From a virus (lineage: Duplodnaviria; Caudoviricetes): 64,000 nt of DNA. Below are positions 34,124 through 49,366 of this stretch, piece by piece. The notes below the pieces were generated by a model. It was not told the origin of the DNA and did no database searches. It was given only the letters and a program-made list of their open reading frames with translations. Where the stretch lies: IMG/VR virus record IMGVR_UViG_3300042301_004035; one strand, given 5' to 3'. The translations under genes and the position numbers were made by a program. Positions within the stretch are counted from its first letter, which is position 1. Each line of letters starts with the position of its first letter.

Positions 34124-36799
34124 ATGGAAACACCACAACAAAAGCTCAATCGTTTAACGACAGAGCCTCAACAGAAAGGAGCAGAAGTGATTGCATTCAT
34201 GCATGACTTCTTCCACACCATCACCAACGACCCAACAGAGCGTGAGTCATTGGCCTATTCAACCGTAAAGAAGACGGGCAAACCATTCAAGATGGGGACA
34301 ACAGTTCGCACTGGTGAGAATGGTGCATACAACCACCATATCTGGCTTATGCCAATCAACAACAACCCTACTTGGAAGTATGGACTCTTGGAGCACAAGC
34401 TTAACAGCCGCGGTAAGAAGTTCAAGCTTAAGATGATCACAATCAATGAGCTGAAGCAGTGGATCAGCAAGGACAACGGAGACTTAGATGCACTCATCGA
34501 AGAATCCAACTTTGCCTGGGCTAATGCAACACATGCTTTCTTCTTGAAGATGCGTGAAGACAACAACTGGTCATTGGATGATCTTGGTGTCAGCGTAATC
34601 GACATGAAGAAGACATCAAAGCGACTTCAAGAAATCACACGGTTTACTCAGGTATATCGTTCAAGGTCAATGAAGTCAGTCACCACTAAGGCTTATACGA
34701 ACGAATGGCTTGAGCAATACTACTCTAGCTATGGATTGAAGTATGATCCAGCAGATGAGGTGATGTTTGATGGACCAGCCTTTATGCGCAAATCAGCATT
34801 CATCAAAGCTTGTTTCCCTATCAAAGATGCGGAAGTAAGAGGCAGGATGATTGGTGGTGTGCACGGTGACAATCGTACTTGGTTGTTCCGTATGAAAATG
34901 GAAAGCTTCATGCTTAAGGGCTTGTTGCACATTGTTGAGGATGATGAAATCCCAGCAGATATTGTGTACCACGAATCAATGGAGAAGAAGGAATTGTCCA
35001 CAACAGATGGTAATTATACATTTGTAGCGTGGCCGATGCCAACTCTGTACGAAGTAACGATTGACGATCAATCAATGATCAACAATCCATGGTTGTACAC
35101 CACTGAACACCTCAAAGCTACATGTGACAGTCTTTTGTCTGACTTCAAGAAAGAAATCGAAGTGGGCAATATGCCAGAATGGATGACTGTTAGCATGGAT
35201 GATCAAGAGGATCATGGAGTAGTCAACGAAGACAATGAACTCCAAGAGTGGCAAGCAAACTACATCAAGTGGCAAAAGGCTGGGTTCTCATTGTATGACA
35301 GCTCAAACTTCATCCACATGGCGTATGGTCAGCTTGCTAATCGCATGAGTGCATCAGTTAAGCGTGGTAACATCTGGTTGCCAATGTTTAATGCATTCAT
35401 GGCTCCTGTCATTACTCATGAGGCATTGCAAATCATGGGTGGACAAGAGCTGCCAGAGTCAAAGTCAAATGTTGTATGGTATGACAAGCGCTTCGGTGCA
35501 ATCATCCCAGGCAATCGCTTTGTTGAGACAGCAGACCTCCACGATACATGGGATCAAGATGGTGACATGGCTAGGTTCATTCGCATTAAGTTGTGGAGCT
35601 CTTCGCCAGTTGTAACTCTCTATGGGTTGTCACACCAGGAATTCAGGGATGGATTTGTTATCCCAGCTGACCTGGAAGTACCAACCACACCAGAAGAAGC
35701 AATCGACATGGTTGTTATCATTCGTTCACCAAACGGACCTGGTGGTTATTCAATCGAGCGTTACGATGCAGAGACAATGCCATTTATGCGTGTAAACGAG
35801 GACATGGTACAGGTAATTGACCTTAGCAAAGCAACATTGCCGATGAGCACACTGCTTAAAGACACTATTGTTGACACTAAGCTCAATGAAATCCTGAACT
35901 CAACACAGTACACCAAGAGGGGATTCACACGGGATAACGCCAAGGACATGATTGATGCACAACTGCACAACCCTGGGTTTGGTTCATTCTCGAACTTCAT
36001 GATGGTGCATGCAAGTGTGTTCGGTCCAAGCTACCCAACCTACATGCCAGCTAGTGGTAATGACATTATCGATGCAAGCTCTCAGACAGCAAACATTGAG
36101 GCATTCCGCTTTATCAGTGGCAGCGTATCAACCATGTGGCAATCAATGATCGATGATATCATCAAGCAAGATATCAGGGTTGACAGCTATATGATGAGTC
36201 GTATCCCTGATCGGTTCAAGCATGAGTTGGAAGGTAATGTCTACGATGGACCATTGGCAGAGCTCAGTGAGCACTACATCAAGGTACTCAAGGATGTACG
36301 CGAAGAGAAGAAGAACACTATCTATCTCCGCATGCGTTCTGAGTTAATCCCTCAACTGCAACAGTTAATTCCTACGCTGTCAGATCAAACACAGGCTGTC
36401 TGTGAAGCATTCAACACCAAGTACATCCACATGTTGCGTGCATTTGACGAACGTAAGGCAGAAGCTAAGGCAGAAGAGACAAAGTGGTCAAGCCGTTACT
36501 TCAAGGCATGGAACGCTGTGTATTCTTCAACCGAGTTGGAAGCCATTGTCAAGATGATGGTCGATGAGATTGAAACGTCCAAGTCACCAACCAAGATGGC
36601 TGTTGCTATCTACCGCTGGATGACTGATCCAAAGATGAGCTACGAGAAAGTATATCACGAAGGTCGTGGTGAATACATCAAAGCTAATGCTCATCTGCGT
36701 TATGGTCTTATTGACCGTGTAATGTTCCAAGCCGGCAAGCGTGGGCAGAAATCAATGATGGATCTGCTTATCCAGGGGCTCAAGGATCTGGGCCTCTAG
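34124..36799 (+). CDS. Putative single-subunit two-barrel (DPBB) RNA-polymerase-like protein, paralog A
   Basis: 'MLKGLLHIV...DIVYHESMEKKE', intact DxDGD (WDQDGD, 35552-35566), 'IIRSPN', 'FGSFSN'; start at 34124 from the GGAGG RBS. Confidence 0.6.
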   Translation: METPQQKLNRLTTEPQQKGAEVIAFMHDFFHTITNDPTERESLAYSTVKKTGKPFKMGTTVRTGENGAYNHHIWLMPINNNPTWKYGLLEHKLNSRGKKFKLKMITINELKQWISKDNGDLDALIEESNFAWANATHAFFLKMREDNNWSLDDLGVSVIDMKKTSKRLQEITRFTQVYRSRSMKSVTTKAYTNEWLEQYYSSYGLKYDPADEVMFDGPAFMRKSAFIKACFPIKDAEVRGRMIGGVHGDNRTWLFRMKMESFMLKGLLHIVEDDEIPADIVYHESMEKKELSTTDGNYTFVAWPMPTLYEVTIDDQSMINNPWLYTTEHLKATCDSLLSDFKKEIEVGNMPEWMTVSMDDQEDHGVVNEDNELQEWQANYIKWQKAGFSLYDSSNFIHMAYGQLANRMSASVKRGNIWLPMFNAFMAPVITHEALQIMGGQELPESKSNVVWYDKRFGAIIPGNRFVETADLHDTWDQDGDMARFIRIKLWSSSPVVTLYGLSHQEFRDGFVIPADLEVPTTPEEAIDMVVIIRSPNGPGGYSIERYDAETMPFMRVNEDMVQVIDLSKATLPMSTLLKDTIVDTKLNEILNSTQYTKRGFTRDNAKDMIDAQLHNPGFGSFSNFMMVHASVFGPSYPTYMPASGNDIIDASSQTANIEAFRFISGSVSTMWQSMIDDIIKQDIRVDSYMMSRIPDRFKHELEGNVYDGPLAELSEHYIKVLKDVREEKKNTIYLRMRSELIPQLQQLIPTLSDQTQAVCEAFNTKYIHMLRAFDERKAEAKAEETKWSSRYFKAWNAVYSSTELEAIVKMMVDEIETSKSPTKMAVAIYRWMTDPKMSYEKVYHEGRGEYIKANAHLRYGLIDRVMFQAGKRGQKSMMDLLIQGLKDLGL

Positions 36800-37028
36800 G
36801 ATAAGTATTATCTTAATGTTATATTCTAAACAAGTACCGTGCTCTGCCTAGTCCCCAAGACTTGGTTCCACTTTGATTCTAAACACGGTTCAAGAGATTT
36901 TCCGCGGTCTGGCCCCCATCACGGGTCTGGCCGTTGAATAAGTCGGGGTCTTTCGGGACTTCGCCTACTGGTAACATCGGGTTGCTGGTAGTTTATGTGA
37001 CTACGGTCACAGAAAGGGGTTGGGTCTA

Positions 37029-37556
37029 ATGACTCTTCTCATCACTAAGGTTGGTGCACCTACAACGCACACACATAACTTGAAGGACGGCTCAGGCTCG
37101 TTCAACAAGACCGAAATTCCTGTAACACTACAGGCCAAGTTCGGTGAGGAAGCAGGCTTTCAGATTGGTGTAAACTACACTATCTGGATGGACGCTGCTC
37201 GTGCAAGCAAAGTCGTCGCGATTGCTCAGGCATTCATTGATGGCACAGCCACTGACAGTAACGGTGAACTGTATCACCCAAGTTGCCGTCTTGCTGTACT
37301 CAACGACAGCGAATGCTTTACTGCGGGCGAACTGCGGACGAAGGAATTGACCAACAAGTTTGGTGGTACATACACTGTTACCAACCAGACCATTTGGTTG
37401 AAGGACGACACGGCTTTGACTTATGACATTGCCGAGTTGGCTGTTTCCCCTCAGCGTGGCAATATCGATGACCTCGATATCCTCGTTGACTTCCGTGGTG
37501 CTGCTTTGGTTGCGCCAGTTGTTACATCCACTGCTACTGCTGAAGTGCCTTTCTGA
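37029..37556 (+). CDS. Putative single-stranded DNA-binding protein with an SSB-like C-terminal tail
   Basis: Beta-rich 175-aa protein ending ATAEVPF; follows the RNAP-like gene; structured leader. Confidence 0.45.
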   Translation: MTLLITKVGAPTTHTHNLKDGSGSFNKTEIPVTLQAKFGEEAGFQIGVNYTIWMDAARASKVVAIAQAFIDGTATDSNGELYHPSCRLAVLNDSECFTAGELRTKELTNKFGGTYTVTNQTIWLKDDTALTYDIAELAVSPQRGNIDDLDILVDFRGAALVAPVVTSTATAEVPF

Positions 37557-37577
37557 CACTTTAGTTTTAGCCCGTTT

Positions 37578-37632
37578 TGTCAGTCAGGTCGGTATGCCCC
37601 CCCGCATATCGGCTTGACTGACATTTTTTTTT
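37578..37632 (+). terminator. Strong intrinsic terminator
   Basis: ~20-bp hairpin TGTCAGTCAGGTCGGTATGC/GCATATCGGCTTGACTGACA followed by T9. Confidence 0.9.
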
Positions 37633-37708
37633 GCAACTAGTTCCCTAATCTTTTTTTTGTTCCTAGTATTCTAATCCTTAGGAATAAGTCGGAGAAAAGG
37701 AGAATAGC

Positions 37709-37867
37709 ATGAGTGAACCTTACATTTGCGGAACAGCAGCACCTGATCCTTGCGAATTTGAAAGCGTAGAACATCATGACGCTACTTGTCAAGAATGTCT
37801 ATCTTGGTTTCCAACATGGACAGCAGCTCAAGAAGCAGCTAAAAAAGCAAGAAATCTGTGTAAATAA
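37709..37867 (+). CDS. Hypothetical Cys-rich 52-aa protein
   Basis: AGGAG RBS; MSEPYICG...CQEC. Confidence 0.45.
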   Translation: MSEPYICGTAAPDPCEFESVEHHDATCQECLSWFPTWTAAQEAAKKARNLCK

Positions 37868-38132
37868 TCATAGGACACATATAAAAGCCTATGTACTGGT
37901 AGCCTGTAAACCAATGGATGTCGAATCAGGCTGAGTAATCAACACTTATATATACATACGGTCGTTCTACCGATGTAAAGTTGATGATGAACAGTCGAGT
38001 TACAGCGACTTTTAAACATTTAGGGTAACCTAGGCCACTGGTACAAGGGCGACATTATTGTACTGTCTGACATATGCAGGAATAGCGTTGTATCAATATG
38101 TTATATTATTCATCTCAATTGAAAGGATTGTT

Positions 38133-38411
38133 ATGGGAATTCAAGACGACTCATTTGATGTTAATCTTATTGCGACTAAAGAAGGTCTAATAAAGATTAG
38201 TCAGATGACTTTGCTAGAAACGGTCAAGGAAATGAACCGCCGTACAGACTCATTGCTTGAGATCTGTGAATCACACCAAATACTTATTGAGCAGTTGTCC
38301 GATAAAGTTATTTCTTTACAGGATGCACTTGATAATCTCAAGCCTTGCCAATGCTGTGGAAGCAACCCATGCCTCGAATCACTCGATGCAGCTAAACATG
38401 GAGACTACTAA
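38133..38411 (+). CDS. Hypothetical coiled-coil protein
   Basis: AAGGA RBS before ATG 38133. Confidence 0.45.
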   Translation: MGIQDDSFDVNLIATKEGLIKISQMTLLETVKEMNRRTDSLLEICESHQILIEQLSDKVISLQDALDNLKPCQCCGSNPCLESLDAAKHGDY

Positions 38412-38653
38412 TGGACATCATCTTACCTCTCGTCATTCTAATCCTCATATCGGCTGTATTCGTGCGAGGCATTGTGCGATATGTTGCCGGCAACCCATGG
38501 AAATTACATCGTTGTATGAACCACCAGTTCTACTTTGAAGAAATAGATTGTCGTGGAATATATTGTGGCGTATGTCACAAGGACATAGACATTGAATATT
38601 ATTCTAAAGGAATAAGTCGGGAGGGAATAACCCATGAAAATACAAATGATTGA
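38411..38653 (+). CDS. Hypothetical membrane-anchored protein with a Zn-finger
   Basis: TM segment, C..H...CGVC. Confidence 0.45.
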   Translation: MDIILPLVILILISAVFVRGIVRYVAGNPWKLHRCMNHQFYFEEIDCRGIYCGVCHKDIDIEYYSKGISREGITHENTND

Positions 38654-38810
38654 TGACATACCACGCAAAGGTTTGTGTGCCATATGTCACAAGACCAAAC
38701 TCACAGTAACAGTATCCATCATATCCAAAGGAAGTCCTATAATCACCACTGAAGATTGGTGCTTAGAAGATTTCCACACTCTACAAGATAAAACACTCAC
38801 ACTACGCTGA
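38634..38810 (+). CDS. Hypothetical 58-aa zinc-ribbon-like protein
   Basis: Manual translation, CAIC...C; GGAGG RBS. Confidence 0.4.
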   Translation: MKIQMIDDIPRKGLCAICHKTKLTVTVSIISKGSPIITTEDWCLEDFHTLQDKTLTLR

Positions 38811-38821
38811 AAGGCAAAAAC

Positions 38822-39115
38822 ATGATATCAAAATATGAAACAAAAGATGAAAACTGGGAATCCTATGGTTTTCTTAATGTACTAACCGAATATCACACAC
38901 GCCCTCAAGGTATGATCAGTTCAATGCGAGCTGAAAAATACAACGATGGTAGTGTTCATATTGAATTCAACATTCAAAGCCCAAGTGGTACACCAGATTC
39001 ATCTGACTTCCTAACCTACACTATGCTAGAAATCAATTCATTTGAACGCGCTAAAGCTATTGTAGATATGTATGCAACCATGTTAGACTCTTACATTCTA
39101 AAGATGTCAGCATGA
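38822..39115 (+). CDS. Hypothetical protein
   Basis: 97-aa ORF. Confidence 0.5.
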   Translation: MISKYETKDENWESYGFLNVLTEYHTRPQGMISSMRAEKYNDGSVHIEFNIQSPSGTPDSSDFLTYTMLEINSFERAKAIVDMYATMLDSYILKMSA

Positions 39116-39310
39116 AAACATTCGGGCTAATCTCAATATCATTTGCAGCAGGCAGTATCACCATGATGATGTGGCTTCGCAAGATATTCAATAAAACAAT
39201 GAAAGGAACCTTGTGAAGAAACTTGCAATAATCACTACAACAATAGCATTCGTTATTGCCGGCTTAGCATTATACATCAAAAAGATGACATTGTTCAAAG
39301 GAGAATAAGC

Positions 39311-39577
39311 ATGAACTATAAGAAACTATTCTGGGGCTACATGGCATTTAGTGCTATCACTGGCTTTGTCATTGGCATTGTGCGCGGCATTGAGCAACAA
39401 AAAATCAAGCGTCGCTTACGCAATAACCCATTGTCTGCCAGTAAAGCATTTCAAGAAGTGTACGGACACTATCATAATCAAGACTTAGATTTCCCTGAAT
39501 GGGTAAACACTGATGAAGACGCTAGATTCAATAGCATTGTAGGCCGTCTAAACCATCCAACGAACCGACAGAAGTAG
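39311..39577 (+). CDS. Hypothetical membrane-anchored protein
   Basis: N-terminal TM segment, AGGAG RBS. Confidence 0.5.
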   Translation: MNYKKLFWGYMAFSAITGFVIGIVRGIEQQKIKRRLRNNPLSASKAFQEVYGHYHNQDLDFPEWVNTDEDARFNSIVGRLNHPTNRQK

Positions 39578-39682
39578 GAATAAGTCGGGATATTTTCGGA
39601 GGGGGGTGACCGTTGTTTGATTGGCTATTCGATATTATCCAAGATATATTAGATTCAATATTCAACTAAGGAGAAAAACATT

Positions 39683-39862
39683 ATGTTAGGTAAATTTCTA
39701 GGTAAAGTTACTGGCAAATCAGTGGAAGTAGTTACTGCTACGCCAGAATTTCTAAAGACGAACACTAAAGCGACTATGGAAGCACTCAAGGGTGCAAAAG
39801 ATGGATTCGTAACTGATTTCAAGGCTGAATACAACAAGCCTGAAGTAACTAACGAGGACTAA
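39683..39862 (+). CDS. Hypothetical 59-aa protein
   Basis: AAGGAG RBS; MLGKFLGKVTGKSVEVV... Confidence 0.5.
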   Translation: MLGKFLGKVTGKSVEVVTATPEFLKTNTKATMEALKGAKDGFVTDFKAEYNKPEVTNED

Positions 39863-39941
39863 TACAAAGATTTGGGCTAGTCCCAAAATAAGCAATAAAC
39901 ACATATCATATCCACATAATAAACACATAAGGAATAAACAC

Positions 39942-40985
39942 ATGTCATTACTCGAAAAATTCGGTTACAAGAAAGACGAGTTCGCAATCGCTTTGGAAAA
40001 CCCAGAGTTGTTTGCATCAAACTCAACTACCACCAAAATCACTGTTGGTACACCAGCCAAAATTGCTGGTTCTATCAATGGCGTTGCTGTTCCAACCACC
40101 ATTCTAGTAAAGAATGCTAACTGGAGCCGTCTCACCGTGCGTGACCATGTTATCCGTCGTCAGGACGCAGAGCCACGCATCAGCCAAGTATTCGGTGGTG
40201 TATTCAATAACTTCCAAGCAGACATCACGCTTGAAGTTGATGGTACTGAAATGTCATTGTATGAACTCATGAAGCAGTTCTGCATCGAATCGTTCGGTAC
40301 ATCCCTTACAGATGACCAAGTAAACAAGATGTTGGAGAGCAACCTTTCGCTCAACGGCATTCGTAACGGTGGCCCTCTGATGTTCCAACAAATGGGTGCA
40401 AATCCTGCTGGTATCGCACACGCAGTAGAAGCGTTCCGTACAGCTGGAGCAATTGACGATATGAAGTCTGTTGCATCAAGCAAGTCATTCAACACTGCTT
40501 ACAAGATTCCTGGCGATGGTGCTGGTCTTGAAGTTGTATCGTTTGAACTTGGTACATCTGACCGTTCACTCTCAAAGACAGGACAAGGCTTCATTGACAT
40601 CGTCAGTGCAGTGACCGAAAACTTTGAGCGTGTAAAGAACCACAAGTCTGTTGCTAAAGTATTGCAAGACAAGTTGAACACAAACATCGGTTCAATGAGC
40701 CAAGAAGCAATCAAGAAGGCACAGACAGAAATCAAGATTGAACTTGACATGGCTAAAGACTATGCTAACTGCTGGTCTGGTGCTGCTCGTCAAACCAAGA
40801 TTGACAATGGTCGCAAGATCGTTGAGAACAAGTACAACGCAGTAAACGCCCCATGTGGTCGTTGGTCTGCCGTAGTTGCTGGTCAAACCATCGACTTCGA
40901 TGTATGGTCAAACTCGACAAAAGCACCAGTACAGACCGCAGAACAGCAGATCAGCGATATCGCAACCGCTGAGGTACCGTTCTAA
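39942..40985 (+). CDS. Highly expressed hypothetical protein with an SSB-like C-terminal tail
   Basis: 347 aa, strongly biased codons, ends ATAEVPF. Confidence 0.55.
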   Translation: MSLLEKFGYKKDEFAIALENPELFASNSTTTKITVGTPAKIAGSINGVAVPTTILVKNANWSRLTVRDHVIRRQDAEPRISQVFGGVFNNFQADITLEVDGTEMSLYELMKQFCIESFGTSLTDDQVNKMLESNLSLNGIRNGGPLMFQQMGANPAGIAHAVEAFRTAGAIDDMKSVASSKSFNTAYKIPGDGAGLEVVSFELGTSDRSLSKTGQGFIDIVSAVTENFERVKNHKSVAKVLQDKLNTNIGSMSQEAIKKAQTEIKIELDMAKDYANCWSGAARQTKIDNGRKIVENKYNAVNAPCGRWSAVVAGQTIDFDVWSNSTKAPVQTAEQQISDIATAEVPF

Positions 40986-41000
40986 GGTTATCTAAATTTG

Positions 41001-41040
41001 GTGGGGTTGGCCTGACTGATCGCGGGTCAACCCTACTAAT
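41001..41040 (+). terminator. Probable terminator hairpin
   Basis: GTGGGGTTGGCCTG...CGGGTCAACCCTAC after the stop of 39942-40985. Confidence 0.5.
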
Positions 41041-41155
41041 AAACTTTTAGTGGGTAGTAAGTGTGCACATTCCCGATGAATGCTGCGAACCAACCATTTG
41101 CTACCCACTATTTAAGTATAATAAAAAAAATTTTATTAACTCAAAAAGGATTAAC

Positions 41156-41419
41156 ATGAGCACCCCACTTGAAATGCTAAATATCCAGCGTTGGATGAAA
41201 GACGCCGCATGTAAAGGAAACACTGAAGGTGACTGGTTCCCAGAAGCCCCAGGCAATTACCCTACAGTAAAAATAGCATTAGCCATATGTAAAGATTGTC
41301 TAGTCAAACAAGAATGTTTAGATTATGCTATGTCACGACCAGAACTACAGGGCATCTGGGGTGGAGTAACAGCACGCAAGCGTGGCAGAATGCGAGCCGA
41401 AGGAAAAAAAAGTGAATGA
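41156..41419 (+). CDS. whiB: WhiB-family transcription factor
   Basis: W...AAC...FP...C..C.V...C...GIWGG. Confidence 0.9.
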   Translation: MSTPLEMLNIQRWMKDAACKGNTEGDWFPEAPGNYPTVKIALAICKDCLVKQECLDYAMSRPELQGIWGGVTARKRGRMRAEGKKSE

Positions 41420-41789: not shown

Positions 41790-42018
41790 CACTCTCTATT
41801 ACTCCCTCTATAACAATACTACTCCCCAAACCTTTTTTCTTGGGGGGCCGAGCGAAGCGAGGCCTCCCTTACCCTAGTAGACTTCCGTATGGAAGCTTAT
41901 AAAAAAATTCGAGGTAGTCCTCAGACCGCCGAGAAAAAAAGAGTACAGATGTTGCAAGTGAGTACACGAGACTGCTATACTGATATCCTAGGAAATAAAC
42001 ACTAAAAGGAGATTATGT

Positions 42019-42234: not shown

Positions 42235-42697
42235 GGTGTTTGCTTCCATGGGAGAGCTCATCTCGTATCTCTACTAGGTGGTGGTAGCTATACTTGGGTG
42301 GGTGGGCTCTCCCGCCCCCCTACACTATAAGTATTAAAATAAGATTAATAATAAGATTAAGCTTACACTACCCCTACCACACACACACAAAACCTAAACC
42401 CAACCCAACAAAAATGTTAGACAAACCAATAAATGGAACCCTCTCGCCCCAGCACCCATTATAACTTATATAACTCAGTATAAATCGATATAAACATATA
42501 GATACACATGTGTACACACATCTATTCCTTATACAGTACACTTGTGTACACAATAAAGAATTCTCCCTATAGGATTTGTCTCTCTCAAATCCACTGAATT
42601 CTGATATAGGAATAAGACAGATCAACAATGCCTAGTCCGTATAGGATAGTATTAGAATAGTATTAGACTAAACAATGTATCGTGAAAGGATACTTAT

Positions 42698-43129
42698 ATG
42701 CTCTTTATGATGATGATATGGTTAGCTGTAGCTTCTACCGTAGTAGAAATGATGTTCGCGGCGAGGATCCCAGCCTGGCGTAAGAACGCACACAAATACA
42801 AATGGGTTAACATGACCCTCTCCCTACTGTTATCATTCATCCTAGGTGTAATGTTCGGTGCAGCCGGACTAATCGCCTTAGGTGCAGCCATGATATCCAC
42901 CGTCCTATCCATCCCAGGCTATGCTATCCTACACTGGAATTATGATTCCAAGGAAGCACAAAAGCATGGTGGTAACATGACGCATTACCTTCGCGGCAAA
43001 TGGATGCAAGCATTCAAAGACCTAGCAAAGGTTATTTACGGAATCATTAGAATAATCACATTCCCAATATGGGCTACCAGAGCAGCTATACAAAAGATCA
43101 ATTCCATTAAAGCACGCAGGGCTGTATGA
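42698..43129 (+). CDS. Integral membrane protein
   Basis: Three to four hydrophobic segments. Confidence 0.55.
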   Translation: MLFMMMIWLAVASTVVEMMFAARIPAWRKNAHKYKWVNMTLSLLLSFILGVMFGAAGLIALGAAMISTVLSIPGYAILHWNYDSKEAQKHGGNMTHYLRGKWMQAFKDLAKVIYGIIRIITFPIWATRAAIQKINSIKARRAV

Positions 43130-43197
43130 AATTAGCTATAGCGGCAGCCCTATTCTTAATCTGGTACATAACAATACAGCTATAACAAAGGACAAAC

Positions 43198-43449
43198 ATG
43201 ACAACCAAAGAAGAAATAAACAAACAAGCTGACCAGCTTATCACCAACACACAAGAATTTGTAAAGATCTTCAACCAAGACAATGACGACCAAGTAATTA
43301 ACCTCTTTGACGTTTTAGATTACCTGGGAATAACAGGTCTAAAAATAGTCAAAATTACCCAAGAAGACATTGACCAAGACGGCACACCCGTCACCACATA
43401 CGCTTACATCAAAGCCCTACAGGAAACTAAACAACTTAAAACTATATAG
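43198..43449 (+). CDS. Hypothetical protein
   Basis: 83 aa, AAGGA RBS. Confidence 0.5.
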   Translation: MTTKEEINKQADQLITNTQEFVKIFNQDNDDQVINLFDVLDYLGITGLKIVKITQEDIDQDGTPVTTYAYIKALQETKQLKTI

Positions 43450-43508
43450 ACATCCTGTCAGCGAAAGCAATATAACAAAAAATTACAAAAAAATTTCGCG
43501 CCGAACGG

Positions 43509-43581
43509 GCCTTGGTAGCTCAGGGGATAGAGCAACGGACTTCTAATCCGCAGGTCGTAGGTTCAATTCCTACCCAAGGCG
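43509..43581 (+). tRNA. tRNA-Arg(TCT)
   Basis: Cloverleaf: GCCTTGG/CCAAGGC acceptor, CT-TCT-AA loop, GGTTCAATTCC T-arm. Confidence 0.92.
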
Positions 43582-43626
43582 CCCACTCAAAATCAAAGAA
43601 GTGACAACCAAAGCAAAGGACATGTA

Positions 43627-43992
43627 ATGGCCAAATACTCTATGACATGGGAAGACCACTACTTTATCTTCTACAAGATGAACCGCAACAGAACCATAAC
43701 TTCTGTCGGTACACCAAAGGAAATAACCCTTTGTAATAACAAATACAACGAAGCATTCTACGGCGTTCGAGCCGGCAAATACGGTATTTTTATACCGTCA
43801 GACGCAGAACGCTGGGGAGTCTTCAGTTTTATCAATAACATATGGACACCACAATTTGGTGACCTTATACCTAAAGAATATGAACGCCAACTGTACACTC
43901 TGGACCAAGGACGCTTTGCGCTCCTCAGAAGAAGTACAGTGAATATTAATTTCTCAATAACCACCAAAACAAACACAAAGGCTAAATCATGA
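43627..43992 (+). CDS. Hypothetical protein
   Basis: 121 aa, AAGGA RBS. Confidence 0.5.
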   Translation: MAKYSMTWEDHYFIFYKMNRNRTITSVGTPKEITLCNNKYNEAFYGVRAGKYGIFIPSDAERWGVFSFINNIWTPQFGDLIPKEYERQLYTLDQGRFALLRRSTVNINFSITTKTNTKAKS

Positions 43993-44633
43993 GTACCGTC
44001 CGAATCAACCTCCCAAATGACATCACTATTGAAGCAACACCCGACCAAGCAGTTGCCATCCTAGCCAAGCTGTCTACCCCTAACGCAGAGACTGAAGATC
44101 AGCGTATTAGCAGAATTAAAGCTCAGAATGCGGCAATTAAACCTAAGCTTGAAGCCGAACTAAAAGAGCTTGAAGCCAAGATTGTCAAAGACAAGAAGGC
44201 CCCAGCTAATAAAACAATCATTGCTGACCTTCCAGTATCATCACAAATCAGTCGTCCACAGCGTGAAGTATTGGACTCAATATTCTTCTACGCCCCAAGC
44301 AGAACAAAGTCTAAAGGCAAAGCAGCTTATGTGGCGGCCATCTTAATGGATCGCGAAATACACAGCATGCAAGAGCTTAAGCGTCTTTCTAATGCGCCAA
44401 CAACCACAGTAACATTTGCTATACGCCGTCTACGCGAAGCTGGTAGCACCGTTGAAGTTAGCTCGCAAGTAATGAGTAAGAATACTTTAGTACAGCTTAC
44501 TCGTCTTGCTAAACCTAAGTTTAAAGTTAACAGAACACTTACGCGTACTAAAACAAAGACACAGAATTCCTCTGCGCCAGCAAAGAATTCACCAATCATA
44601 ATCCCTAAAGGATTCACAGAACTAACCGTGTAA
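43989..44633 (+). CDS. Putative DNA-binding protein with a C-terminal HTH
   Basis: Basic; 'HSMQELKRLSNAPTTTVTFAIRRLREAG' HTH-like segment. Confidence 0.5.
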   Translation: MSTVRINLPNDITIEATPDQAVAILAKLSTPNAETEDQRISRIKAQNAAIKPKLEAELKELEAKIVKDKKAPANKTIIADLPVSSQISRPQREVLDSIFFYAPSRTKSKGKAAYVAAILMDREIHSMQELKRLSNAPTTTVTFAIRRLREAGSTVEVSSQVMSKNTLVQLTRLAKPKFKVNRTLTRTKTKTQNSSAPAKNSPIIIPKGFTELTV

Positions 44634-44787
44634 ACGGTTAACAAGTTGTCAGTACTGGGCTATGTAATCAAGGTTGTTCATGGTCTGATTGCACAGGGTC
44701 CCTTTCAACTTAAACTTCCTGAGAGTTTAAGTCCGCTCCGCTTCCCCAGGCGTGAGCCCCAGTCTGGCATTTATTTAAAGGAATATT

Positions 44788-45249
44788 ATGACCATAACAC
44801 AAACAGAAATACCAGCACATATAGAGCAATTACTTGATGTACACAATACATTATGGGATGCTCTCTCAGACTCCTATGCCGGTTTAAAATTAGACTATAA
44901 AGGCAGTAAGTATGATATATACAAGCCAGAACATAATGGCTTTACATCTACTGTTCTATCTAATGACAACGGCAAAAACTTTTTGTGGATTACACAAAAT
45001 TTAAACAAGTCATCTTACGGTTCATTCGAAATTAAAAGAGCTCGCTCTCAAGGAGACGATAAACGTATCACTTGGATAGTTGATAACAGCAATGATAAAT
45101 TTTATTATTGCGCTCTTATTAAAACTTGTGTTTATTTTGATGGCAAAAAAGATATTCTTGTCGAAAGATATATCAACGATAACACAGAAGTTGTTTATTG
45201 TACCAATCCAACTTATGCAAGTTACGTTACACACAAATCAAAATATTAA
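44788..45249 (+). CDS. Hypothetical protein
   Basis: 153 aa, AAGGA RBS. Confidence 0.55.
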   Translation: MTITQTEIPAHIEQLLDVHNTLWDALSDSYAGLKLDYKGSKYDIYKPEHNGFTSTVLSNDNGKNFLWITQNLNKSSYGSFEIKRARSQGDDKRITWIVDNSNDKFYYCALIKTCVYFDGKKDILVERYINDNTEVVYCTNPTYASYVTHKSKY

Positions 45250-45439
45250 CTCAAAAATGTTGGACACCTTAATTTATACACCTTAGGTGTTCACGCATAC
45301 ATTATATATATATTTCTTGTAATGTTGCATTCTAATAAATTAAGTGTTATACTATATTTCTAGTAAAAATAAGATATTATTTATATACCTATATATACCT
45401 TTCATAACTCAAATTAACTCACATTAAGGACATATTATC

Positions 45440-45643
45440 ATGGCTAAGCCTTCAAAAACACCTCTTATTCAGGAATTCATTTCAATGAATAATGGAAAGA
45501 CATTTTCCACAAAAGAAATGTGCAAAGAAATCGGAGTAAGTCTTCCTACTCTTCTTGCATTCATCAAAAACAATCCAGACACCTTTAGCTCAATGAGCTA
45601 TGGCGTCTACAAGATCGAAGTAAACATACAGGCTACATACTAA
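45440..45643 (+). CDS. Small HTH DNA-binding protein
   Basis: 'FSTKEMCKEIGVSLPTLLAFI'. Confidence 0.6.
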   Translation: MAKPSKTPLIQEFISMNNGKTFSTKEMCKEIGVSLPTLLAFIKNNPDTFSSMSYGVYKIEVNIQATY

Positions 45644-45780
45644 AACATATATACAAATAAAGAATGAAACTTAACTTTTATTCTTTATACAGGTACTATT
45701 CATCTATCGTTAATAAACGATAGCGCAGGTAAGTTAACACTTACCCATCCCCTAAACAAGGATATGTATTGAATAGATAC

Positions 45781-45809
45781 TTGTTACACCACCATATATG
45801 TGATAGAAT
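45781..45809 (+). promoter_or_regulatory. Sigma70/SigA-type promoter
   Basis: TTGTTA-17nt-TAGAAT with TG at the extended -10 position. Confidence 0.6.
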
Positions 45810-45815
45810 AATACC

Positions 45816-46009
45816 AATGCCCGTAACCAGCGGGCAGGGGAATAATCCCTAACGTAACAGAGAAATACTGTGAAGTCGGAGATGGCTAACCTTGCCACTG
45901 TGACGGGCATTTCGTATATGTCCGCACATCTTCGGTTTCGCAACCTGCGCCGTACTAATGGTTTCCATTTCGGAAATCAGACAAAGACGAAAAGGAGCGA
46001 ACACGGAAT
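45816..46009 (+). ncRNA. Structured 5' leader (riboswitch-like candidate) of the transglycosylase gene
   Basis: A 9-bp closing stem (45816-45824/45903-45911) begins at the predicted TSS and encloses three hairpins; a second multi-hairpin domain lies before the RBS. Confidence 0.45.
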
Positions 46010-46606
46010 ATGCAGAATAAATATAACAAATCAATTATAGGTGTTATAGCTATATTTTTAGCTTTAACAACTGGAGCCAATGCGCTACTTGCGCAAAAAG
46101 TTCCTGACATGGAACCTCCCAGTACCCCTTGGGTACTTAGACACATTCCCGACATAATTGAAAGTAAAACAGCACAAGAACCAATTGCCTTTAAACATGG
46201 TGATGTATCATGGTTGGCAGACCTAGCTATTAAAGTAGGCTGGCCCAAGAAAACAATACCTCGCTTAGAGCACATTGTTCTTCGCGAATCAGGCGGTTGT
46301 CCTAACCGCATTGGTGGATCCATAGTTGATAAGAACTGTAATATTATTGGACACACAGGTGCTACCAATAAATCCGACTCAGGATTATTACAGATCAACG
46401 GTGTTAACTGGGATCCTAAAAGACCAGGAACACAAATTGCTTGTGCTCGACTTAGGATATGTACACAGGAAGCTATATTAGATCCTGTCAACAATCTTAA
46501 AGTGGGACTTCTTCTTTATGAAGAAGCTGGTTGGGGACCTTGGGACCCATGTCAGTGGGGCCCAGAGTACGCAAGCAGATGCAAAACAATGCCTAAAATG
46601 CCTTGA
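46010..46606 (+). CDS. Secreted lytic transglycosylase (SLT/Rpf-like lysozyme fold)
   Basis: Signal peptide; 'IVLRESGG', 'DSGLLQIN', 'DPVNNLKVG', 'GWGPW'. Confidence 0.8.
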   Translation: MQNKYNKSIIGVIAIFLALTTGANALLAQKVPDMEPPSTPWVLRHIPDIIESKTAQEPIAFKHGDVSWLADLAIKVGWPKKTIPRLEHIVLRESGGCPNRIGGSIVDKNCNIIGHTGATNKSDSGLLQINGVNWDPKRPGTQIACARLRICTQEAILDPVNNLKVGLLLYEEAGWGPWDPCQWGPEYASRCKTMPKMP

Positions 46607-46640
46607 TGATAATAATCATTTAGGTTTATAGGAATAAGAC

Positions 46641-46666
46641 GGGGGGCCGAAAGGCCCCCCTTTTTA
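46641..46666 (+). terminator. Intrinsic terminator
   Basis: GGGGGGCC-GAAA-GGCCCCCC followed by a T run. Confidence 0.9.
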
Positions 46667-46732
46667 GTTAACCCAAAAAACATCTTTTTTTGCTAATTCA
46701 AAAGTATAGCAAAAACTTAAACTGAAAGGTAC

Positions 46733-49366
46733 ATGAACATGCCAATATATCAGCCTGCCGTCCGTTTACAAACAATGCACAACGGACCATTGCGAAGCAT
46801 TAACGATTATCAATTTGGATTCTATGATGTCGGCTTCGGTCGGCAAGCTCTTCAATATCTTCACGAAGTAGAAGGTCTTGAAAATCCAATCTTTAGAATG
46901 GCTACAATGCCAATTCCTTCCAATAAGATTGAAGCAAAGATTGCAGAAGCATACATTCGTAACCCCAACATCTGCTATTCCATAGTAGATAAAAACAAGA
47001 TTGTACTAGTACACATCAATGGCAACGATGGTTGGCTTGATGTATACAAAAAACTTGGTTATGAGATCCTTAGCGGCGATAAGACAGCTAAGCGACTCAA
47101 AACCTTTCACCGTGCAGCACTACTAAATGCTCACTTTACCAAAGACGAAATCAATGTTCAGATCGTAGAGCCAGATAAGTATTCATCCTGGTCATTTGAA
47201 GATCCATTCTTTCAGCAATGGGCTGCAAAAGAATATCCTAATATCGACGTTACAGATCCTAAAGTCATCGAGCGTTTGCTTGATGGCGGTTTCGTAATCT
47301 CTCGTAAGTTTATTCAGCGTGCAGCTGAGAACTTACCAGTATACGAACCACACAAAACTTTAGATACTAAAGAATATTATTACGACTGGCGTGTTCGTAA
47401 GAACTTTATTAAAGATATGATGGAATGCTCTATATTCAATACTCGTATTGTATTCGAAGAGGGTTTCCTCAAGGGCAATGCCATCGTATCTGACAACATG
47501 CCAGAAGGTGTAGATATTATCACTACACGCACAAATATAAAGAACGAAATCAAGTATCACAATGGCTTTCAGTTTCTAGCTGAGCCAGTGGGATCGTATG
47601 ATTCTGTTCTTACTGACACCCAAACTGTTATTAATCTTCCTAAACTATTCCCTAACGCTGATCTAGAGTATTGGCTTGACGAAGAATACAAAAAGATCTT
47701 TGATCTTGCTGTATCCGACAAGCTACTCACTAACTGGCGTGCAGTTTACAAGCGTCAGTTCCGCAAAATCCACGAAGCAGAAGACGAAGAGGCATATGCC
47801 CGCATGAACTATGTGGGCTATCGTTGGCGTAAGCTTGGCATGAAGATCACTGATTCACCATGGTTGTTTGAAACCTTGGCGATCAGTCATGCCCGACCAT
47901 TTGCCGATTCATCTAAGCCTCGTATACCAGTTCCATGCGCAATAAGTGAACAGGTTATTCCTGAGTCACTTTCTCGTATGGCTGGCTATGACCTCGATGT
48001 AGACCAAGGCAAGATACGACGTATCGAAGAACTTGGTGTACACGTAGTTAGTGACCTTGACTGGCTAGAAATGTATGAGAGCCATGGCGGTCACGACGAG
48101 GACGACTACTTCAAGCTGTTCTATCGCACCATGCGTGGTGGCGAATACGACGGCAAGAAGGTAGTTATCATCTGCCGTTCACCCAATGACCTTGGTGAGT
48201 ATTCAATCTTTGAATACACCGAAGGTGATTGGTCTCCAGTATGGCACAACGCTGCTGGGATTCCAACAGAATTTCCAGAAATAAGCGGACGTGACTGGCC
48301 AAAGCGTTTAAGTAAAGCTATCTTTGATGGCGACATTACTTATTCAGGTTTGCCATCTAAATCACTACCTAAAACTAAGCCTGAACAAGCACCCTATACA
48401 CCTGACGACGTCATTCGAGATATGAATATCGCAATGGCTGGCGGTCAAATCGGTGGATATGTAAATGCTTGCATGCTTTATTCTTCGGTGATTCACCGTC
48501 ACCGTCCAATCCAATTGTGCACTTTAGAGACTGCTCTCGACAAATGCATTAACCCAGATTCTATAGAAGATGTTATAGCAATTGACAACGAAGCTAAAGC
48601 TATTGTTCGTCAAGTTATCGAAAGCAAAACCCCAATCGATCAATTCGTTTGGAGTACTCGTGGTTCAGCCCGTTTACTTGAAGAAGATGATGATCTTCTG
48701 ATAGATGAAAACGGCAAGCTAACCATGATGTCTAAATTATGCTATGATAAATTTGCAGAACACACTGCTCGCGTTCGTGAATGGGCGCAAAATAATGCCC
48801 GTCCATCCGATCCACGCATAGCAGAATTGGGCAATAGCCAATTGCAAATGTTCTATCATGCACTACCAATTGTCAACCAATTCCGCTCAGGCATATGGTC
48901 AATCAACACATCTGAAGCAACAGCTGAAAATGGATCTATTGTACGCAACTCTTGGGAATATTTATATTCCAAACAAGTTGACATCATTAATTCATTTGAA
49001 CTTGAATCTGATCGTCATGACTTCGTACTTGCACTATATTCTGTCTGTCTTAATGTGCCAACTAAAGGCGGCAAAATTACAGACCATTATATGATGAACA
49101 GATTTGTTTATCCATATCTAGAATCTGCTTTGCAGTATTATGGTTTGGGCAAATCTGTCAACTTCCTGATGCAGGAAGATGGTGATGTTAAGATTCTCGA
49201 AACATTAGTTACCGAATGGAAGTTTACCGATCCTGAAGGCAACTCAACTTTATTCAATGATCCAATTGAATTTCAACAAGCTCAGTCTGTTTATTCTAAA
49301 GTTCAATTTGTTACAAATTCTGCTTCGTTACTTTCTTCGGAAGTACGAACTACTTCAAAGTATTAA
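46733..49366 (+). CDS. Putative two-barrel RNA-polymerase-like protein, paralog B (variant catalytic loop GGHDEDDY)
   Basis: Collinear motifs with 34124-36799: 'FLKGNAIV..DII...NIKNE', 'ICRSPNDLGEYSI', 'IGGYVN'. Confidence 0.55.
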   Translation: MNMPIYQPAVRLQTMHNGPLRSINDYQFGFYDVGFGRQALQYLHEVEGLENPIFRMATMPIPSNKIEAKIAEAYIRNPNICYSIVDKNKIVLVHINGNDGWLDVYKKLGYEILSGDKTAKRLKTFHRAALLNAHFTKDEINVQIVEPDKYSSWSFEDPFFQQWAAKEYPNIDVTDPKVIERLLDGGFVISRKFIQRAAENLPVYEPHKTLDTKEYYYDWRVRKNFIKDMMECSIFNTRIVFEEGFLKGNAIVSDNMPEGVDIITTRTNIKNEIKYHNGFQFLAEPVGSYDSVLTDTQTVINLPKLFPNADLEYWLDEEYKKIFDLAVSDKLLTNWRAVYKRQFRKIHEAEDEEAYARMNYVGYRWRKLGMKITDSPWLFETLAISHARPFADSSKPRIPVPCAISEQVIPESLSRMAGYDLDVDQGKIRRIEELGVHVVSDLDWLEMYESHGGHDEDDYFKLFYRTMRGGEYDGKKVVIICRSPNDLGEYSIFEYTEGDWSPVWHNAAGIPTEFPEISGRDWPKRLSKAIFDGDITYSGLPSKSLPKTKPEQAPYTPDDVIRDMNIAMAGGQIGGYVNACMLYSSVIHRHRPIQLCTLETALDKCINPDSIEDVIAIDNEAKAIVRQVIESKTPIDQFVWSTRGSARLLEEDDDLLIDENGKLTMMSKLCYDKFAEHTARVREWAQNNARPSDPRIAELGNSQLQMFYHALPIVNQFRSGIWSINTSEATAENGSIVRNSWEYLYSKQVDIINSFELESDRHDFVLALYSVCLNVPTKGGKITDHYMMNRFVYPYLESALQYYGLGKSVNFLMQEDGDVKILETLVTEWKFTDPEGNSTLFNDPIEFQQAQSVYSKVQFVTNSASLLSSEVRTTSKY

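What the first reader, a model, noticed from the sequence alone, without database searches (positions are those of the whole stretch)
34124..49366. Two paralogous ~890-aa proteins with two-barrel RNA-polymerase-like motifs, one with an altered catalytic loop
Seen: 34124-36799 and 46733-49366 share collinear blocks (LKG..IV...DI....K.E; D.Q..IN.P.L; W.K.G....DS; RSPN..G.YSI; G...N..M...SV). Paralog A has WDQDGD (35552-35566) and paralog B has GGHDEDDY (48095-48106). Established: a KG..S..K barrel, a DxDGD loop and a G..N helix are hallmarks of QDE-1/YonO-type single-subunit double-psi-barrel polymerases. Unusual here: the RxP motif comes after the DxDGD loop rather than before it, and B lacks the Gly spacer. 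Inference: a divergent, possibly permuted phage RNAP family with an active and a variant copy, or two stage-specific enzymes.
Basis: partly seen in the sequence, partly recalled or inferred. Interest (0 to 1): 0.8.

Follow-up and report, generated by a model that had tools for sequence, protein, structure and literature searches.

The report
Two phage two-barrel RNA polymerase paralogs
A roughly 200-kb lake phage carries two very distantly related copies of an unnamed single-chain enzyme built on the same catalytic core as cellular RNA polymerase; both look active, so the phage probably transcribes part of its own genome with enzymes from an abundant family for which I found no annotation or publication.

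Summary
Observation confirmed. 34124-36799 (A, 891 aa) and 46733-49366 (B, 877 aa) are true paralogs (hhalign E 1e-30) and carry the stated motifs. AlphaFold models (pLDDT 92) significantly match only single-chain two-barrel polymerases: RDR2/QDE-1 (Z 10-13.6 over about 600 residues), gp64-type phage RNAPs, P23-45 gp96 and YonO. There is no significant Pfam, PHROGs or PDB sequence hit; this is an unnamed superfamily (518 clusters at 50% identity). Ten residues are invariant across 136 members and follow the order of QDE-1's catalytic set.

The motif order is not permuted: E. coli beta' also has SPxNGE after NADFDGD, and R/W-x-P precedes the loop here. B is not the odd copy: DxDD is the family norm (123/136), and A's DxDGD is a nested minority.

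Complete relatives keep the pair and add a giant third paralog. A motif, GGAATAAGWCGG, occurs only between A and B (6 copies here; all 5 in a 216-kb relative), the last about 100 nt before B. It is a candidate promoter class.

Most likely these are two active phage DNA-dependent RNA polymerases with separate promoter sets; template and timing are untested. The scan met this family before on other DNA (e1-5343035, e1-5337955, e1-5368655, e1-5368672).

The parts
34124..36799 (+). Gene A, 891 aa: single-chain two-barrel polymerase paralog with a DxDGD loop
   Evidence: ORF and start; 49 homologs; AF2 pLDDT 92.2, pTM 0.91; Foldseek QDE-1 E 3.4e-7; VIA RDR2 Z 12.4 and QDE-1 Z 10.8
34610..34624 (+). 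A K163-R167 (K..KR) on helix 164-172: invariant/near-invariant basic helix before the first barrel, placed like QDE-1's auxiliary helix with R671
   Evidence: K166 invariant, K163 and R167 in at least 90% of 136 sequences; DSSP; QDE-1 residues from PMC9508822; equivalence inferred from order only
34769..35035 (+). A residues 216-304: first (beta-like) barrel region with invariant D216 and K265, and near-invariant G217... R256, G266, K288
   Evidence: Conservation; strand pattern in the model; order and spacing match QDE-1 D709, R738, K743, K767
35381..35758 (+). A residues 420-545: second (beta'-like) barrel carrying the acidic loop
   Evidence: The pattern strand-strand-strand-helix-loop-strand...strand in the model follows the order of E. 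coli beta' 418-505
35552..35566 (+). A acidic loop D477-Q-D479-G-D481 (predicted Mg-binding triad)
   Evidence: All three Asp invariant in 136 sequences; local pLDDT 92-98
35723..35734 (+). A R534-S-P-N537, start of RSPNGPGGYSI, after the acidic loop
   Evidence: R534 and P536 invariant; positional counterpart of beta' LSPANGEP, which follows NADFDGD by about 30 residues
35930..36022 (+). A helices 603-633 with near-invariant G620 and N624: candidate bridge-helix region
   Evidence: Conservation; helices in the model; assignment inferred, not superposed
46733..49366 (+). Gene B, 877 aa: paralog with a DxDD loop, the family's majority form
   Evidence: ORF; 247 homologs; AF2 pLDDT 91.7, pTM 0.90; Foldseek RDR2 2e-8, QDE-1 3.5e-8; exhaustive VIA RDR2 Z 13.6, P74 gp62 10.7, QDE-1 10.0, gp96 8.4; YonO 6.6e-5
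47282..47587 (+). B residues 184-285: first barrel region with D184, G185, R238, K247, G248, K270
   Evidence: Invariant or near-invariant
47927..48217 (+). B residues 399-495: second barrel, from R397-I-P399 through the acidic loop to RSPN
48095..48106 (+). B acidic loop D455-E-D457-D458
   Evidence: All three Asp invariant; DxDD in 123 of 136 family members
48176..48187 (+). B R482-S-P-N485
   Evidence: R482 and P484 invariant
36936..36946 (+). Motif copy 1 (GAATAAGTCGG), 137 nt after A's stop
   Evidence: G002 has a copy about 120 nt after its A homolog
37682..37692 (+). Motif copy 2; follows terminator 37578-37623; ribosome-binding site and ATG 27 nt downstream
38610..38620 (+). Motif copy 3; ATG 24 nt downstream
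39578..39588 (+). Motif copy 4
42610..42620 (+). Motif copy 5 (GAATAAGACAG)
46632..46642 (+). Motif copy 6 (GAATAAGACGG), 101 nt before B's ATG; same position in L001 and L002
46641..46665 (+). Terminator-like GC hairpin plus T run between motif copy 6 and gene B
   Evidence: conserved in relatives

Best explanation
A and B are two anciently diverged paralogs of an unnamed, abundant family of single-chain two-barrel (double-psi beta-barrel) nucleotide polymerases. Structurally they are nearest to eukaryotic cellular RdRPs (RDR2, QDE-1), then to the phage enzymes of the P23-45 gp64/gp96 type and to YonO. Each keeps the full catalytic set. One barrel supplies three Asp (A: D477, D479, D481; B: D455, D457, D458). 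The other supplies a fourth Asp (D216 / D184) and basic residues (R256, K265, K288 / R238, K247, K270). Both are therefore most likely active Mg-dependent RNA polymerases (shown: fold and conservation; inferred: catalysis). By analogy with the characterised phage members named here (YonO, gp64, gp96, crAss gp66), they most likely copy DNA and transcribe phage genes independently of host RNA polymerase, each with its own promoter class (inferred). The roughly 10-kb block between the two genes is marked by a motif, tAGGAATAAG(T/A)CGGg, found nowhere else. Its first copy lies just after A and its last about 100 nt before B. So B belongs to a small regulon that begins where A ends. A relay is the simplest reading, in which an earlier polymerase makes A, A reads this motif class and so turns on B, and B reads a further class (speculative). 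Relatives also carry a giant third paralog and a small sigma-r4-like protein, so the full programme probably involves more than these two enzymes.
For: Paralogy. Confident models: pLDDT 92.2 and 91.7. Fold: for both proteins the only significant PDB matches are two-barrel single-chain polymerases. VIA second look for A: RDR2 Z 12.4 over 592 residues, QDE-1 Z 10.8 over 623, gp64-type Z 10.0, gp96 Z 8.2, unrelated rows at most 5.5. An exhaustive search of 48,161 chains for B gives Z of at least 8 only for RDR2 (13.6), P74 gp62 (10.7), QDE-1 (10.0) and gp96 (8.4, 8.1). In Swiss-Prot models the top 12 hits are RDRs and YonO is 13th at 6.6e-5, followed by noise. Conservation: 10 columns are invariant in 136 sequences, namely K166, D216, G217, K265, D477, D479, D481, R534, P536 and D650 in A numbering, and every member has three Asp in the loop. 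These residues follow the order of QDE-1's R671, D709, R738, K743, K767 and D1007/1009/1011, with a K-to-K gap of 23 against 24, and fit the definition of the superfamily in PMC7824862. Pairing: six complete or near-complete relatives (G002, G003, G004, G012, G013, G014) carry two strong copies on one strand, 9-16 kb apart. No beta', T7-type RNAP or sigma region 2 was detected in complete relatives. Motif: 6 exact copies here, all on the + strand between A's stop and B's start. In the complete 216-kb relative G002 all 5 copies lie between the A and B homologs and none lies elsewhere. The flanks are diverged while the motif is kept.
Against: No sequence-level link to any characterised polymerase. 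Whether a DxDD loop binds metal like DxDxD is untested. The nearest structural relatives are RNA-templated enzymes, so the template is not settled. There are no transcript-start data. Motif copy 6 is directly followed by a terminator-like hairpin, which is awkward for a promoter. Relatives encode a Sigma70_r4_2 protein, so host RNA polymerase may serve some gene classes. Which enzyme reads the motif is unknown.
Confidence: 0.75

Rival explanations
1. One of the paralogs (B is the better candidate, as it lies upstream of helicase genes) is the phage's replicative primase. It would make RNA primers on unwound DNA instead of, or as well as, mRNA.
For: Five complete relatives have a DnaB-type helicase but nothing detectable with four primase models: DnaG zinc ribbon, Toprim_2, Toprim_4 and Prim-Pol. 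Some family members are fused to an N-terminal PIF1-like helicase (P0220, P0227, P0310), an arrangement reminiscent of primase-helicase fusions. B is followed two genes later by an SF2 helicase.
Against: Absence under four Pfam models does not show that a primase is absent; divergent or host primases remain possible. The characterised phage two-barrel enzymes considered here are transcriptases. The gene next to B is an SF2 helicase, not the DnaB-type one. The motif regulon points to transcription control. Nothing tested here bears on primer synthesis.
Confidence: 0.1
2. They are RNA-dependent RNA polymerases like their nearest structural relatives (QDE-1, RDR2), copying phage or host RNA, for example to make antisense or double-stranded RNA.
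For: The top structural matches are cellular RdRPs. The nearest named language-model clusters carry PF05183, at a score of 0.84, which is only a lead.
Against: QDE-1 itself also copies DNA (PMC9508822). The phage members with known activity are DNA-dependent (PMC5467207, PMC10770324). The Pfam RdRP model does not match. A double-stranded DNA phage with no other detectable RNA polymerase core of its own has an obvious use for DNA-dependent enzymes.
Confidence: 0.07
3. B is a catalytically impaired or regulatory copy and only A is an active polymerase.
For: B's loop departs from the canonical DxDxD spacing.
Against: DxDD is the form in 123 of 136 family members, including whole clades where it is the only form. 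All three Asp and every other invariant residue are kept in B and in 247 B-type homologs. The B model is as confident as the A model.
Confidence: 0.04
4. The fold resemblance is not functional, and these are not polymerases at all.
For: No sequence-level match to any known family.
Against: Matches cover about 600 residues collinearly, stand well above unrelated rows in two independent aligners, and coincide with invariant residues of the expected kinds in the expected order.
Confidence: 0.03

Closest known systems
QDE-1 (Neurospora) and plant RDR2: eukaryotic cellular RdRPs (PDB 2J7N, 7Y7P, 7W82, 7W84; Pfam PF05183)
   Same: Single chain of similar size with two double-psi barrels. These are the best structural matches (Z 10-13.6, about 590-620 collinear residues). 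The order of catalytic residues is the same: basic helix, Asp, Arg/Lys, Lys, Asp triad.
   Different: No detectable sequence similarity; PF05183 does not match at E up to 1. The loop is mostly DxDD here, against DxDGD there. These are phage-encoded and present in 2-3 paralogs per genome. Any RNAi role is irrelevant in a phage, and the likely template is DNA.
P23-45 gp64 (non-virion) and gp96 (tape-measure-fused virion) RNA polymerases and their homologs P74 gp62 and P32 gp64 (PDB 8F5M, 8F72, 8H2M/N; PMC10770324)
   Same: Phage single-chain two-barrel RNA polymerases, with two paralogs in one phage and distinct promoter motifs and time classes. Structural Z is 8-10.7, covering most of the smaller target.
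   Different: About 590-aa enzymes from a 'thermophilic virus' against about 880 aa here. No sequence similarity. Neither A nor B is fused to a structural protein. The possible virion-type copy in this clade is a separate giant paralog seen only in relatives.
YonO of Bacillus prophage SPbeta (Swiss-Prot O31945; PMC5467207)
   Same: A single-chain DNA-dependent RNA polymerase of about 100 kDa, homologous to multisubunit enzymes. It is a significant fold match to B (E 6.6e-5, probability 1.00).
   Different: A weaker match than the eukaryotic RdRPs. tblastn found no match in 50,697 phage records. In PMC7824862 YonO-like enzymes were noted in only two jumbo phages.
crAss-like phage phi14:2 gp66 virion RNA polymerase (PDB 6VR4)
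   Same: The same two-barrel core; 441-523 residues align.
   Different: Only Z 5.2. It is a 2,166-residue virion-packaged protein.
Multisubunit RNA polymerase beta/beta' (E. coli rpoB/rpoC; jumbo-phage split versions)
   Same: The same motif order within the catalytic barrel: x-x-P, then the acidic loop, then SP-N-G-E. A basic pair about 8-9 residues apart in the other barrel.
   Different: The two barrels are on separate subunits. hhalign of the family profile against rpoB and rpoC is not significant. PF00623 is absent from complete relatives.

Membership tests
Two-barrel (double-psi beta-barrel) polymerase superfamily | Catalytic core fold with two barrels in the order seen in single-chain members | tested here: met
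   Both models match only such enzymes at significance. A: RDR2 Z 12.4, QDE-1 Z 10.8. B: RDR2 Z 13.6, gp62 10.7, QDE-1 10.0, gp96 8.4 in an exhaustive search. Foldseek probability 1.00.
Two-barrel (double-psi beta-barrel) polymerase superfamily | Triad of metal-binding Asp in a DxDxD signature in one barrel (PMC7824862, PMC10770324) | tested here: met
   For A: D477-Q-D479-G-D481, invariant, after the helix and before the strand, as in beta'.
Two-barrel (double-psi beta-barrel) polymerase superfamily | The same Asp triad signature, in B | tested here: inconclusive
   B has three invariant Asp in the homologous loop, but spaced D-x-D-D (D455, D457, D458). Whether the shifted third Asp binds metal cannot be tested with these tools.
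Two-barrel (double-psi beta-barrel) polymerase superfamily | Two basic residues supplied by the other barrel | tested here: met
   R256 (at least 90%) and K265 (invariant) in A, R238 and K247 in B, 9 residues apart, against 8 in E. coli beta K1065/K1073; also K288 / K270. Equivalence is by order and spacing, not by superposition.
Two-barrel (double-psi beta-barrel) polymerase superfamily | Bridge helix and trigger loop after the catalytic barrel | tested here: inconclusive
   Long helices 603-633 (A) and 557-587 (B) carry near-invariant G and N, and an invariant Asp follows (D650 / D603). Structural alignments run through this region, but I could not inspect residue-level superpositions.
Eukaryotic-type cellular RdRP (Pfam PF05183) | Match to the family's sequence model | tested here: not met
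   No PF05183 hit for A or B at E up to 1. No hit of the family profiles to QDE-1 or RDR2 sequences in the PDB at E up to 10.
YonO family | Detectable sequence homology to YonO | tested here: not met
   tblastn of A against 50,697 phage records found nothing at E up to 1e-5. Only the fold matches.
P23-45 gp64/gp96 family | Detectable sequence homology | tested here: not met
   Family profiles find no PDB sequence of 8F5M, 8F72 or 8H2M at E up to 10. Fold Z is 8-10.7.
Multisubunit RNA polymerase beta/beta' | Sequence homology to rpoB/rpoC or Pfam Rpb1 domains | tested here: not met
   hhalign of the family profile against E. coli rpoB and rpoC gives probability under 1%. No Rpb1-domain family appears among the Pfam hits for A or B at E up to 1.
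DNA-dependent RNA polymerase used for phage transcription (functional class) | Promoter-specific RNA synthesis on phage DNA | not testable with these tools
   Only indirect evidence: a motif class confined to the A-to-B block. RNA contigs cannot show starts.

The most novel reading that the evidence does not exclude
One of the paralogs is the replicative primase of this phage clade, that is, a two-barrel, RNA-polymerase-type primase working with the phage's DnaB-type helicase. Five complete relatives show no conventional primase under four Pfam models, and some family members are fused to PIF1-like helicases. The other paralogs (A and the giant third copy) would then run a host-independent transcription relay.
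Probability: 0.1. Interest if true: 0.85.

Novelty: new variant of a known kind. Interest (0 to 1): 0.6.

Why it matters
Single-chain two-barrel RNA polymerases are known from only a handful of phages (YonO, crAss gp66, P23-45 gp64/gp96). They are central to ideas about how RNA polymerases, and the eukaryotic RNAi polymerases, arose. This window documents a large family (518 clusters at 50% identity) that no searched database annotates and for which my literature searches found no description. It is carried in two to three paralogs by common freshwater phages of about 200 kb. It lies structurally closer to eukaryotic RdRPs than to the known phage enzymes, and it uses a non-canonical DxDD acidic loop. 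If both copies are active, the DxDD loop widens what counts as a two-barrel active site. The motif confined to the A-to-B block gives a direct handle for testing promoter specificity in vitro, without a cultured host.

Tried and rejected
Sequence-level searches that found nothing useful:
- Pfam and PHROGs scans of A and B found nothing significant.
- tblastn and megablast against 50,697 phage records found no match.
- Profiles of family A, family B and the whole superfamily against PDB sequences gave only chance hits.
- phmmer of A's catalytic-barrel segment against PDB sequences gave chance hits only.
- hhalign of the family profile against single E. coli rpoB and rpoC sequences was not significant. 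I used those sequences only to read motif order.

Gene structure:
- I tested whether the upstream 267-aa ORF is fused to A through a frameshift, because close homologs are about 1117 aa. tblastn shows that their N-terminal roughly 210 residues (NADAR, or a weak 2OG-Fe(II) oxygenase match) are not encoded upstream of A here.
- The whole genome of the window is not held, so genome-wide statements rest on relatives.

Regulatory signals:
- Sigma-70-like promoters are not enriched in 29600-49500 (49 found, 51 expected).
- k-mer enrichment found no second motif class on the + strand.
- The palindrome GTCyATTGGTrGAC upstream of A's block is absent from G002 and G005.
- TTACTATW in late intergenic regions is not enriched overall.
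- Lineage-specific repeats upstream of B in distant relatives (e.g. TTCATACAAAG) are suggestive, but they were picked as the best of many k-mers.

Expression:
- Four lake metatranscriptome runs hold only short contigs inside the A-to-B interval and almost none over A or B. The runs were chosen by that interval, and contigs show no starts or strands, so I draw no conclusion on expression.

Not attempted:
- A complex prediction was not run. A plus B exceeds the size limit, and no interface is implied.
Full report
**Setting.** The window is part of a large phage genome. The - strand (1-25300) carries major head, portal, large terminase and tail-fibre genes. The + strand (25800-64000) carries a UvsX-like recombinase, an SF2 helicase, a subtilase-like protease, six tRNA genes and many small unannotated ORFs. 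DNA runs labelled lake-water or freshwater metagenome hold at least 93% of the region's sampled words in 14 runs. Relatives in IMG/VR are contigs of 170-270 kb, several with terminal repeats.

**The observation.** Gene A is 34124-36799 (891 aa). ATG 34124 sits behind a GGGAGG ribosome-binding site, and a 99%-identical database protein is also 891 aa. Gene B is 46733-49366 (877 aa). Profiles of the two families align over 566 columns with probability 99.85% and E 1e-30. The acidic motifs are at the stated coordinates.

**What they are.**
- Pfam returns only sub-threshold matches for A and none for B, and PHROGs returns none for either. tblastn finds no match in 50,697 phage records. Family profiles find no credible PDB sequence.
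- A profile search of 1.84 billion representative proteins finds 518 clusters at E up to 1e-3, of which 199 are at E up to 1e-30. This is a large unnamed superfamily.
- With 86-sequence alignments, AlphaFold gives very confident models: A has pLDDT 92.2 and pTM 0.91; B has 91.7 and 0.90.
- Foldseek against the PDB returns only single-chain two-barrel polymerases at significance. These are QDE-1, maize and Arabidopsis RDR2, and P74 gp62 and P32 gp64. P23-45 gp96 and crAss gp66 appear lower in the lists, at non-significant E-values.
- A second aligner gives, for A, RDR2 Z 12.4 (592 residues), QDE-1 Z 10.8 (623), gp64-type Z 10.0 and gp96 Z 8.2, with unrelated rows at 5.5 or less.
- An exhaustive alignment of B to 48,161 representative chains, run without Foldseek, gives Z of at least 8 for five chains only: RDR2 13.6, P74 gp62 10.7, QDE-1 10.0, and gp96 8.4 and 8.1.
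- Against Swiss-Prot models, B's first 12 hits are plant and fission-yeast RDRs. The 13th is YonO (E 6.6e-5), followed by noise.
- The closest viral models are two 'uncharacterized' proteins of uncultured Caudovirales.

**Catalytic residues.** Across 136 superfamily members ten columns are invariant. In A numbering they are K166, D216, G217, K265, D477, D479, D481, R534, P536 and D650. In B they are K120, D184, G185, K247, D455, D457, D458, R482, P484 and D603. K163, R167, R256, G266, K288, Q316, G540, G620, N624, D687 and D864 are present in at least 90%.

The QDE-1 structure paper names its functional residues as R671 on an auxiliary helix; D709, R738, K743 and K767 in the first barrel; and D1007, D1009 and D1011 in the second (PMC9508822). 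The family's invariant residues come in the same order. The Lys-to-Lys gap is 23 residues, against 24 in QDE-1. The basic pair is 9 residues apart, against 8 for E. coli beta K1065/K1073.

This fits the published definition of the superfamily: an Asp triad from one barrel and two basic residues from the other (PMC7824862). The equivalences are inferred from order, spacing and the models' secondary structure. I could not superpose coordinates.

- *The order is not permuted.* The structural alignments are collinear along the whole chain. In the real E. coli beta' sequence the order is LNRAP (about residue 425), NADFDGD (458-464) and LSPANGEP (about 493). An SP-N-G-E element after the acidic loop is therefore canonical. 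Here an x-x-P element also precedes the loop (R397-I-P399 in B, W418-L-P420 in A), with the Pro kept in at least 90% of members.
- *B is not the aberrant copy.* Of 136 members, 123 have D-x-D-D and 13 have D-x-D-G-D; none lacks an Asp. In a maximum-likelihood tree the B-type clade (49 tips, support 1.0) is entirely DxDD. The other clade (87 tips) is mostly DxDD. A's DxDGD group is a nested clade of 11 tips (support 1.0), and there is a second independent pair. Within this family the canonical-looking loop of A is the minority, and probably secondary, state.

**Genomic pattern.** The window holds only these two copies. Six complete or near-complete relatives (G002, G003, G004, G012, G013, G014) each carry two strong copies on the same strand, 9-16 kb apart. 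Several also show a weak third match inside a giant ORF. In G005 this is a 1441-aa protein with GGFDLDD followed by YRQPSGPQE and a hydrophobic C-terminal segment. It has homologs in all four complete relatives tested, about 120 kb from the pair in G002. It is not in this window. The same relatives show no beta', T7-type polymerase or sigma region 2, but all five tested have a small ORF with a Sigma70_r4_2 domain.

**A block-specific motif.** GAATAAGWCRG has six exact copies in the window, all on the + strand. They are at 36936, 37682, 38610, 39578, 42610 and 46632, that is, only between A's stop (36799) and B's start (46733).
- In the complete 216-kb relative G002 the 12-mer GGAATAAGWCGG has five matches within one mismatch. 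All are exact and forward, and all lie at 61827-71834, between the A homolog (ends 61707) and the B homolog (starts 71933). None lies elsewhere on either strand.
- G005 has three exact copies upstream of its B homolog.
- Across 14 copies the consensus is tAGGAATAAG(T/A)CGGg, with unrelated flanks, while the A genes of the two phages are only about 72% identical in DNA.
- Five copies (two in the window, two in G002, one in G005) sit 24-29 nt before an ATG, with a ribosome-binding site between.
- The copy before B is followed at once by a conserved terminator-like hairpin. That fits a unit boundary but is awkward for a simple promoter.
- Sigma-70-like sites are not enriched.

I read the motif as a candidate promoter class for a small regulon that starts where A ends and includes B. 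Which polymerase reads it is unknown.

**Mechanism.**
- Shown: fold, conservation, paralog pairing and motif distribution.
- Inferred: both proteins are active Mg-dependent RNA polymerases. By analogy with YonO, gp64, gp96 and gp66 (PMC5467207, PMC10770324), they transcribe phage DNA with separate promoter specificities.
- Speculative: a relay in which A switches on the block that contains B.

**Rivals.**
- *Primase role for one paralog.* No DnaG zinc ribbon, Toprim_2, Toprim_4 or Prim-Pol is found in five complete relatives that do have a DnaB-type helicase, and some family members are fused to PIF1-like helicases.
- *RNA-templated synthesis*, like the nearest structural relatives.
- *An inactive B.*
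- *A non-polymerase.*

The last two are poorly supported.

**Novelty.** Phage single-chain two-barrel polymerases are a known kind, and paired virion and non-virion enzymes are known. What is new here:
- a family that no searched database annotates;
- its size;
- its DxDD loop;
- two to three paralogs per genome in common freshwater phages;
- greater structural closeness to eukaryotic RdRPs than to YonO.

My four literature searches turned up no description of this family. Earlier agents of this scan reached similar conclusions for relatives on other DNA. I used those notes as leads and re-tested the claims here.

Noticed in passing
L050:1810-6132 (- strand; G005:C1, a close relative), not in this window: A giant third paralog (1441 aa, P0319) with GGFDLDD followed by YRQPSGPQE and a hydrophobic C-terminal segment. 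Homologs are in all four complete relatives tested; in G002 it is split into two ORFs of 660 and 955 aa. It may be a virion-type polymerase.
   Followed up: partly
G002:C1:133004-133138, G003:C1:5176-5310, G012:C1:132122-132259, G013:C1:86072-86206, G004:C1:103784-103912: All five complete relatives have a small ORF (168-206 aa) with a Sigma70_r4_2 domain, above Pfam's cut-off in four. No sigma region 2 was detected. This suggests a phage sigma-like factor and some use of host RNA polymerase.
   Followed up: partly
G002, G003, G004, G012, G013 (whole records): No DnaG zinc ribbon, Toprim_2, Toprim_4, Prim-Pol or family A DNA polymerase domain was detected in five complete genomes of about 200 kb, although each has a DnaB_C helicase. 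The source of replication primers is unexplained.
   Followed up: partly
P0220, P0227, P0310, P0308, P0013, P0250, P0282 (superfamily members from metagenomes): Some family members carry N-terminal fusions: a PIF1-like helicase (three), a NADAR domain (three), DUF4326 (two). Close homologs of A have an extra roughly 210 N-terminal residues that this window does not encode.
   Followed up: partly
window 33591-33626 and 34091-34126: A 36-nt translation-initiation region (AATCAACCAACAACAA...GGGAGGTAAA.CC.ATG) is duplicated at 89% identity. The second copy gives A's start. The first gives an in-frame internal ATG (33624) inside the 267-aa ORF 33276-34079.
   Followed up: no
window 30989-31004 and 31598-31613: There are two exact copies of the palindrome TGTCyATTGGTrGACr in intergenic DNA at the head of the gene block that ends with A. 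It is operator-like. It is absent from relatives G002 and G005.
   Followed up: yes
window 25271-25428: The divergent intergenic region between the late (-) and early (+) blocks holds a long TATATA-rich stretch and three tandem AGGGGGT units (25370-25390).
   Followed up: no
window 2090, 5785, 23839, 25363 (- strand): TTACTAT[AT] recurs in four of the few intergenic regions upstream of late genes. It is not enriched in the window as a whole (12 found, 9 expected), so it is only a weak candidate late-promoter element.
   Followed up: partly
window 34640-34642 (A R173) and 46841-46843 (B R37): CGG codons in A (residues 173, 603, 697) and B (residue 37) are read as ordinary Arg. R173 and R37 are conserved Arg columns, so the CGG-N frame breaks reported for late genes of this genome do not affect these two genes.
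   Followed up: partly
window 50392-52071: The gene two ORFs downstream of B's small neighbours is an SF2 helicase (ResIII / Helicase_C / SNF2-like), not a DnaB-type replicative helicase. It could be a transcription-associated motor.
   Followed up: no
L009, L016, L036, L012 (about 45-60 nt upstream of the B homolog): More distant lineages lack GGAATAAG but show their own + strand-only repeats shared between B's upstream region and the preceding 10 kb (e.g. TTCATACAAAG, 5-6 copies). This would be expected if polymerase and promoter co-evolve.
   Followed up: partly
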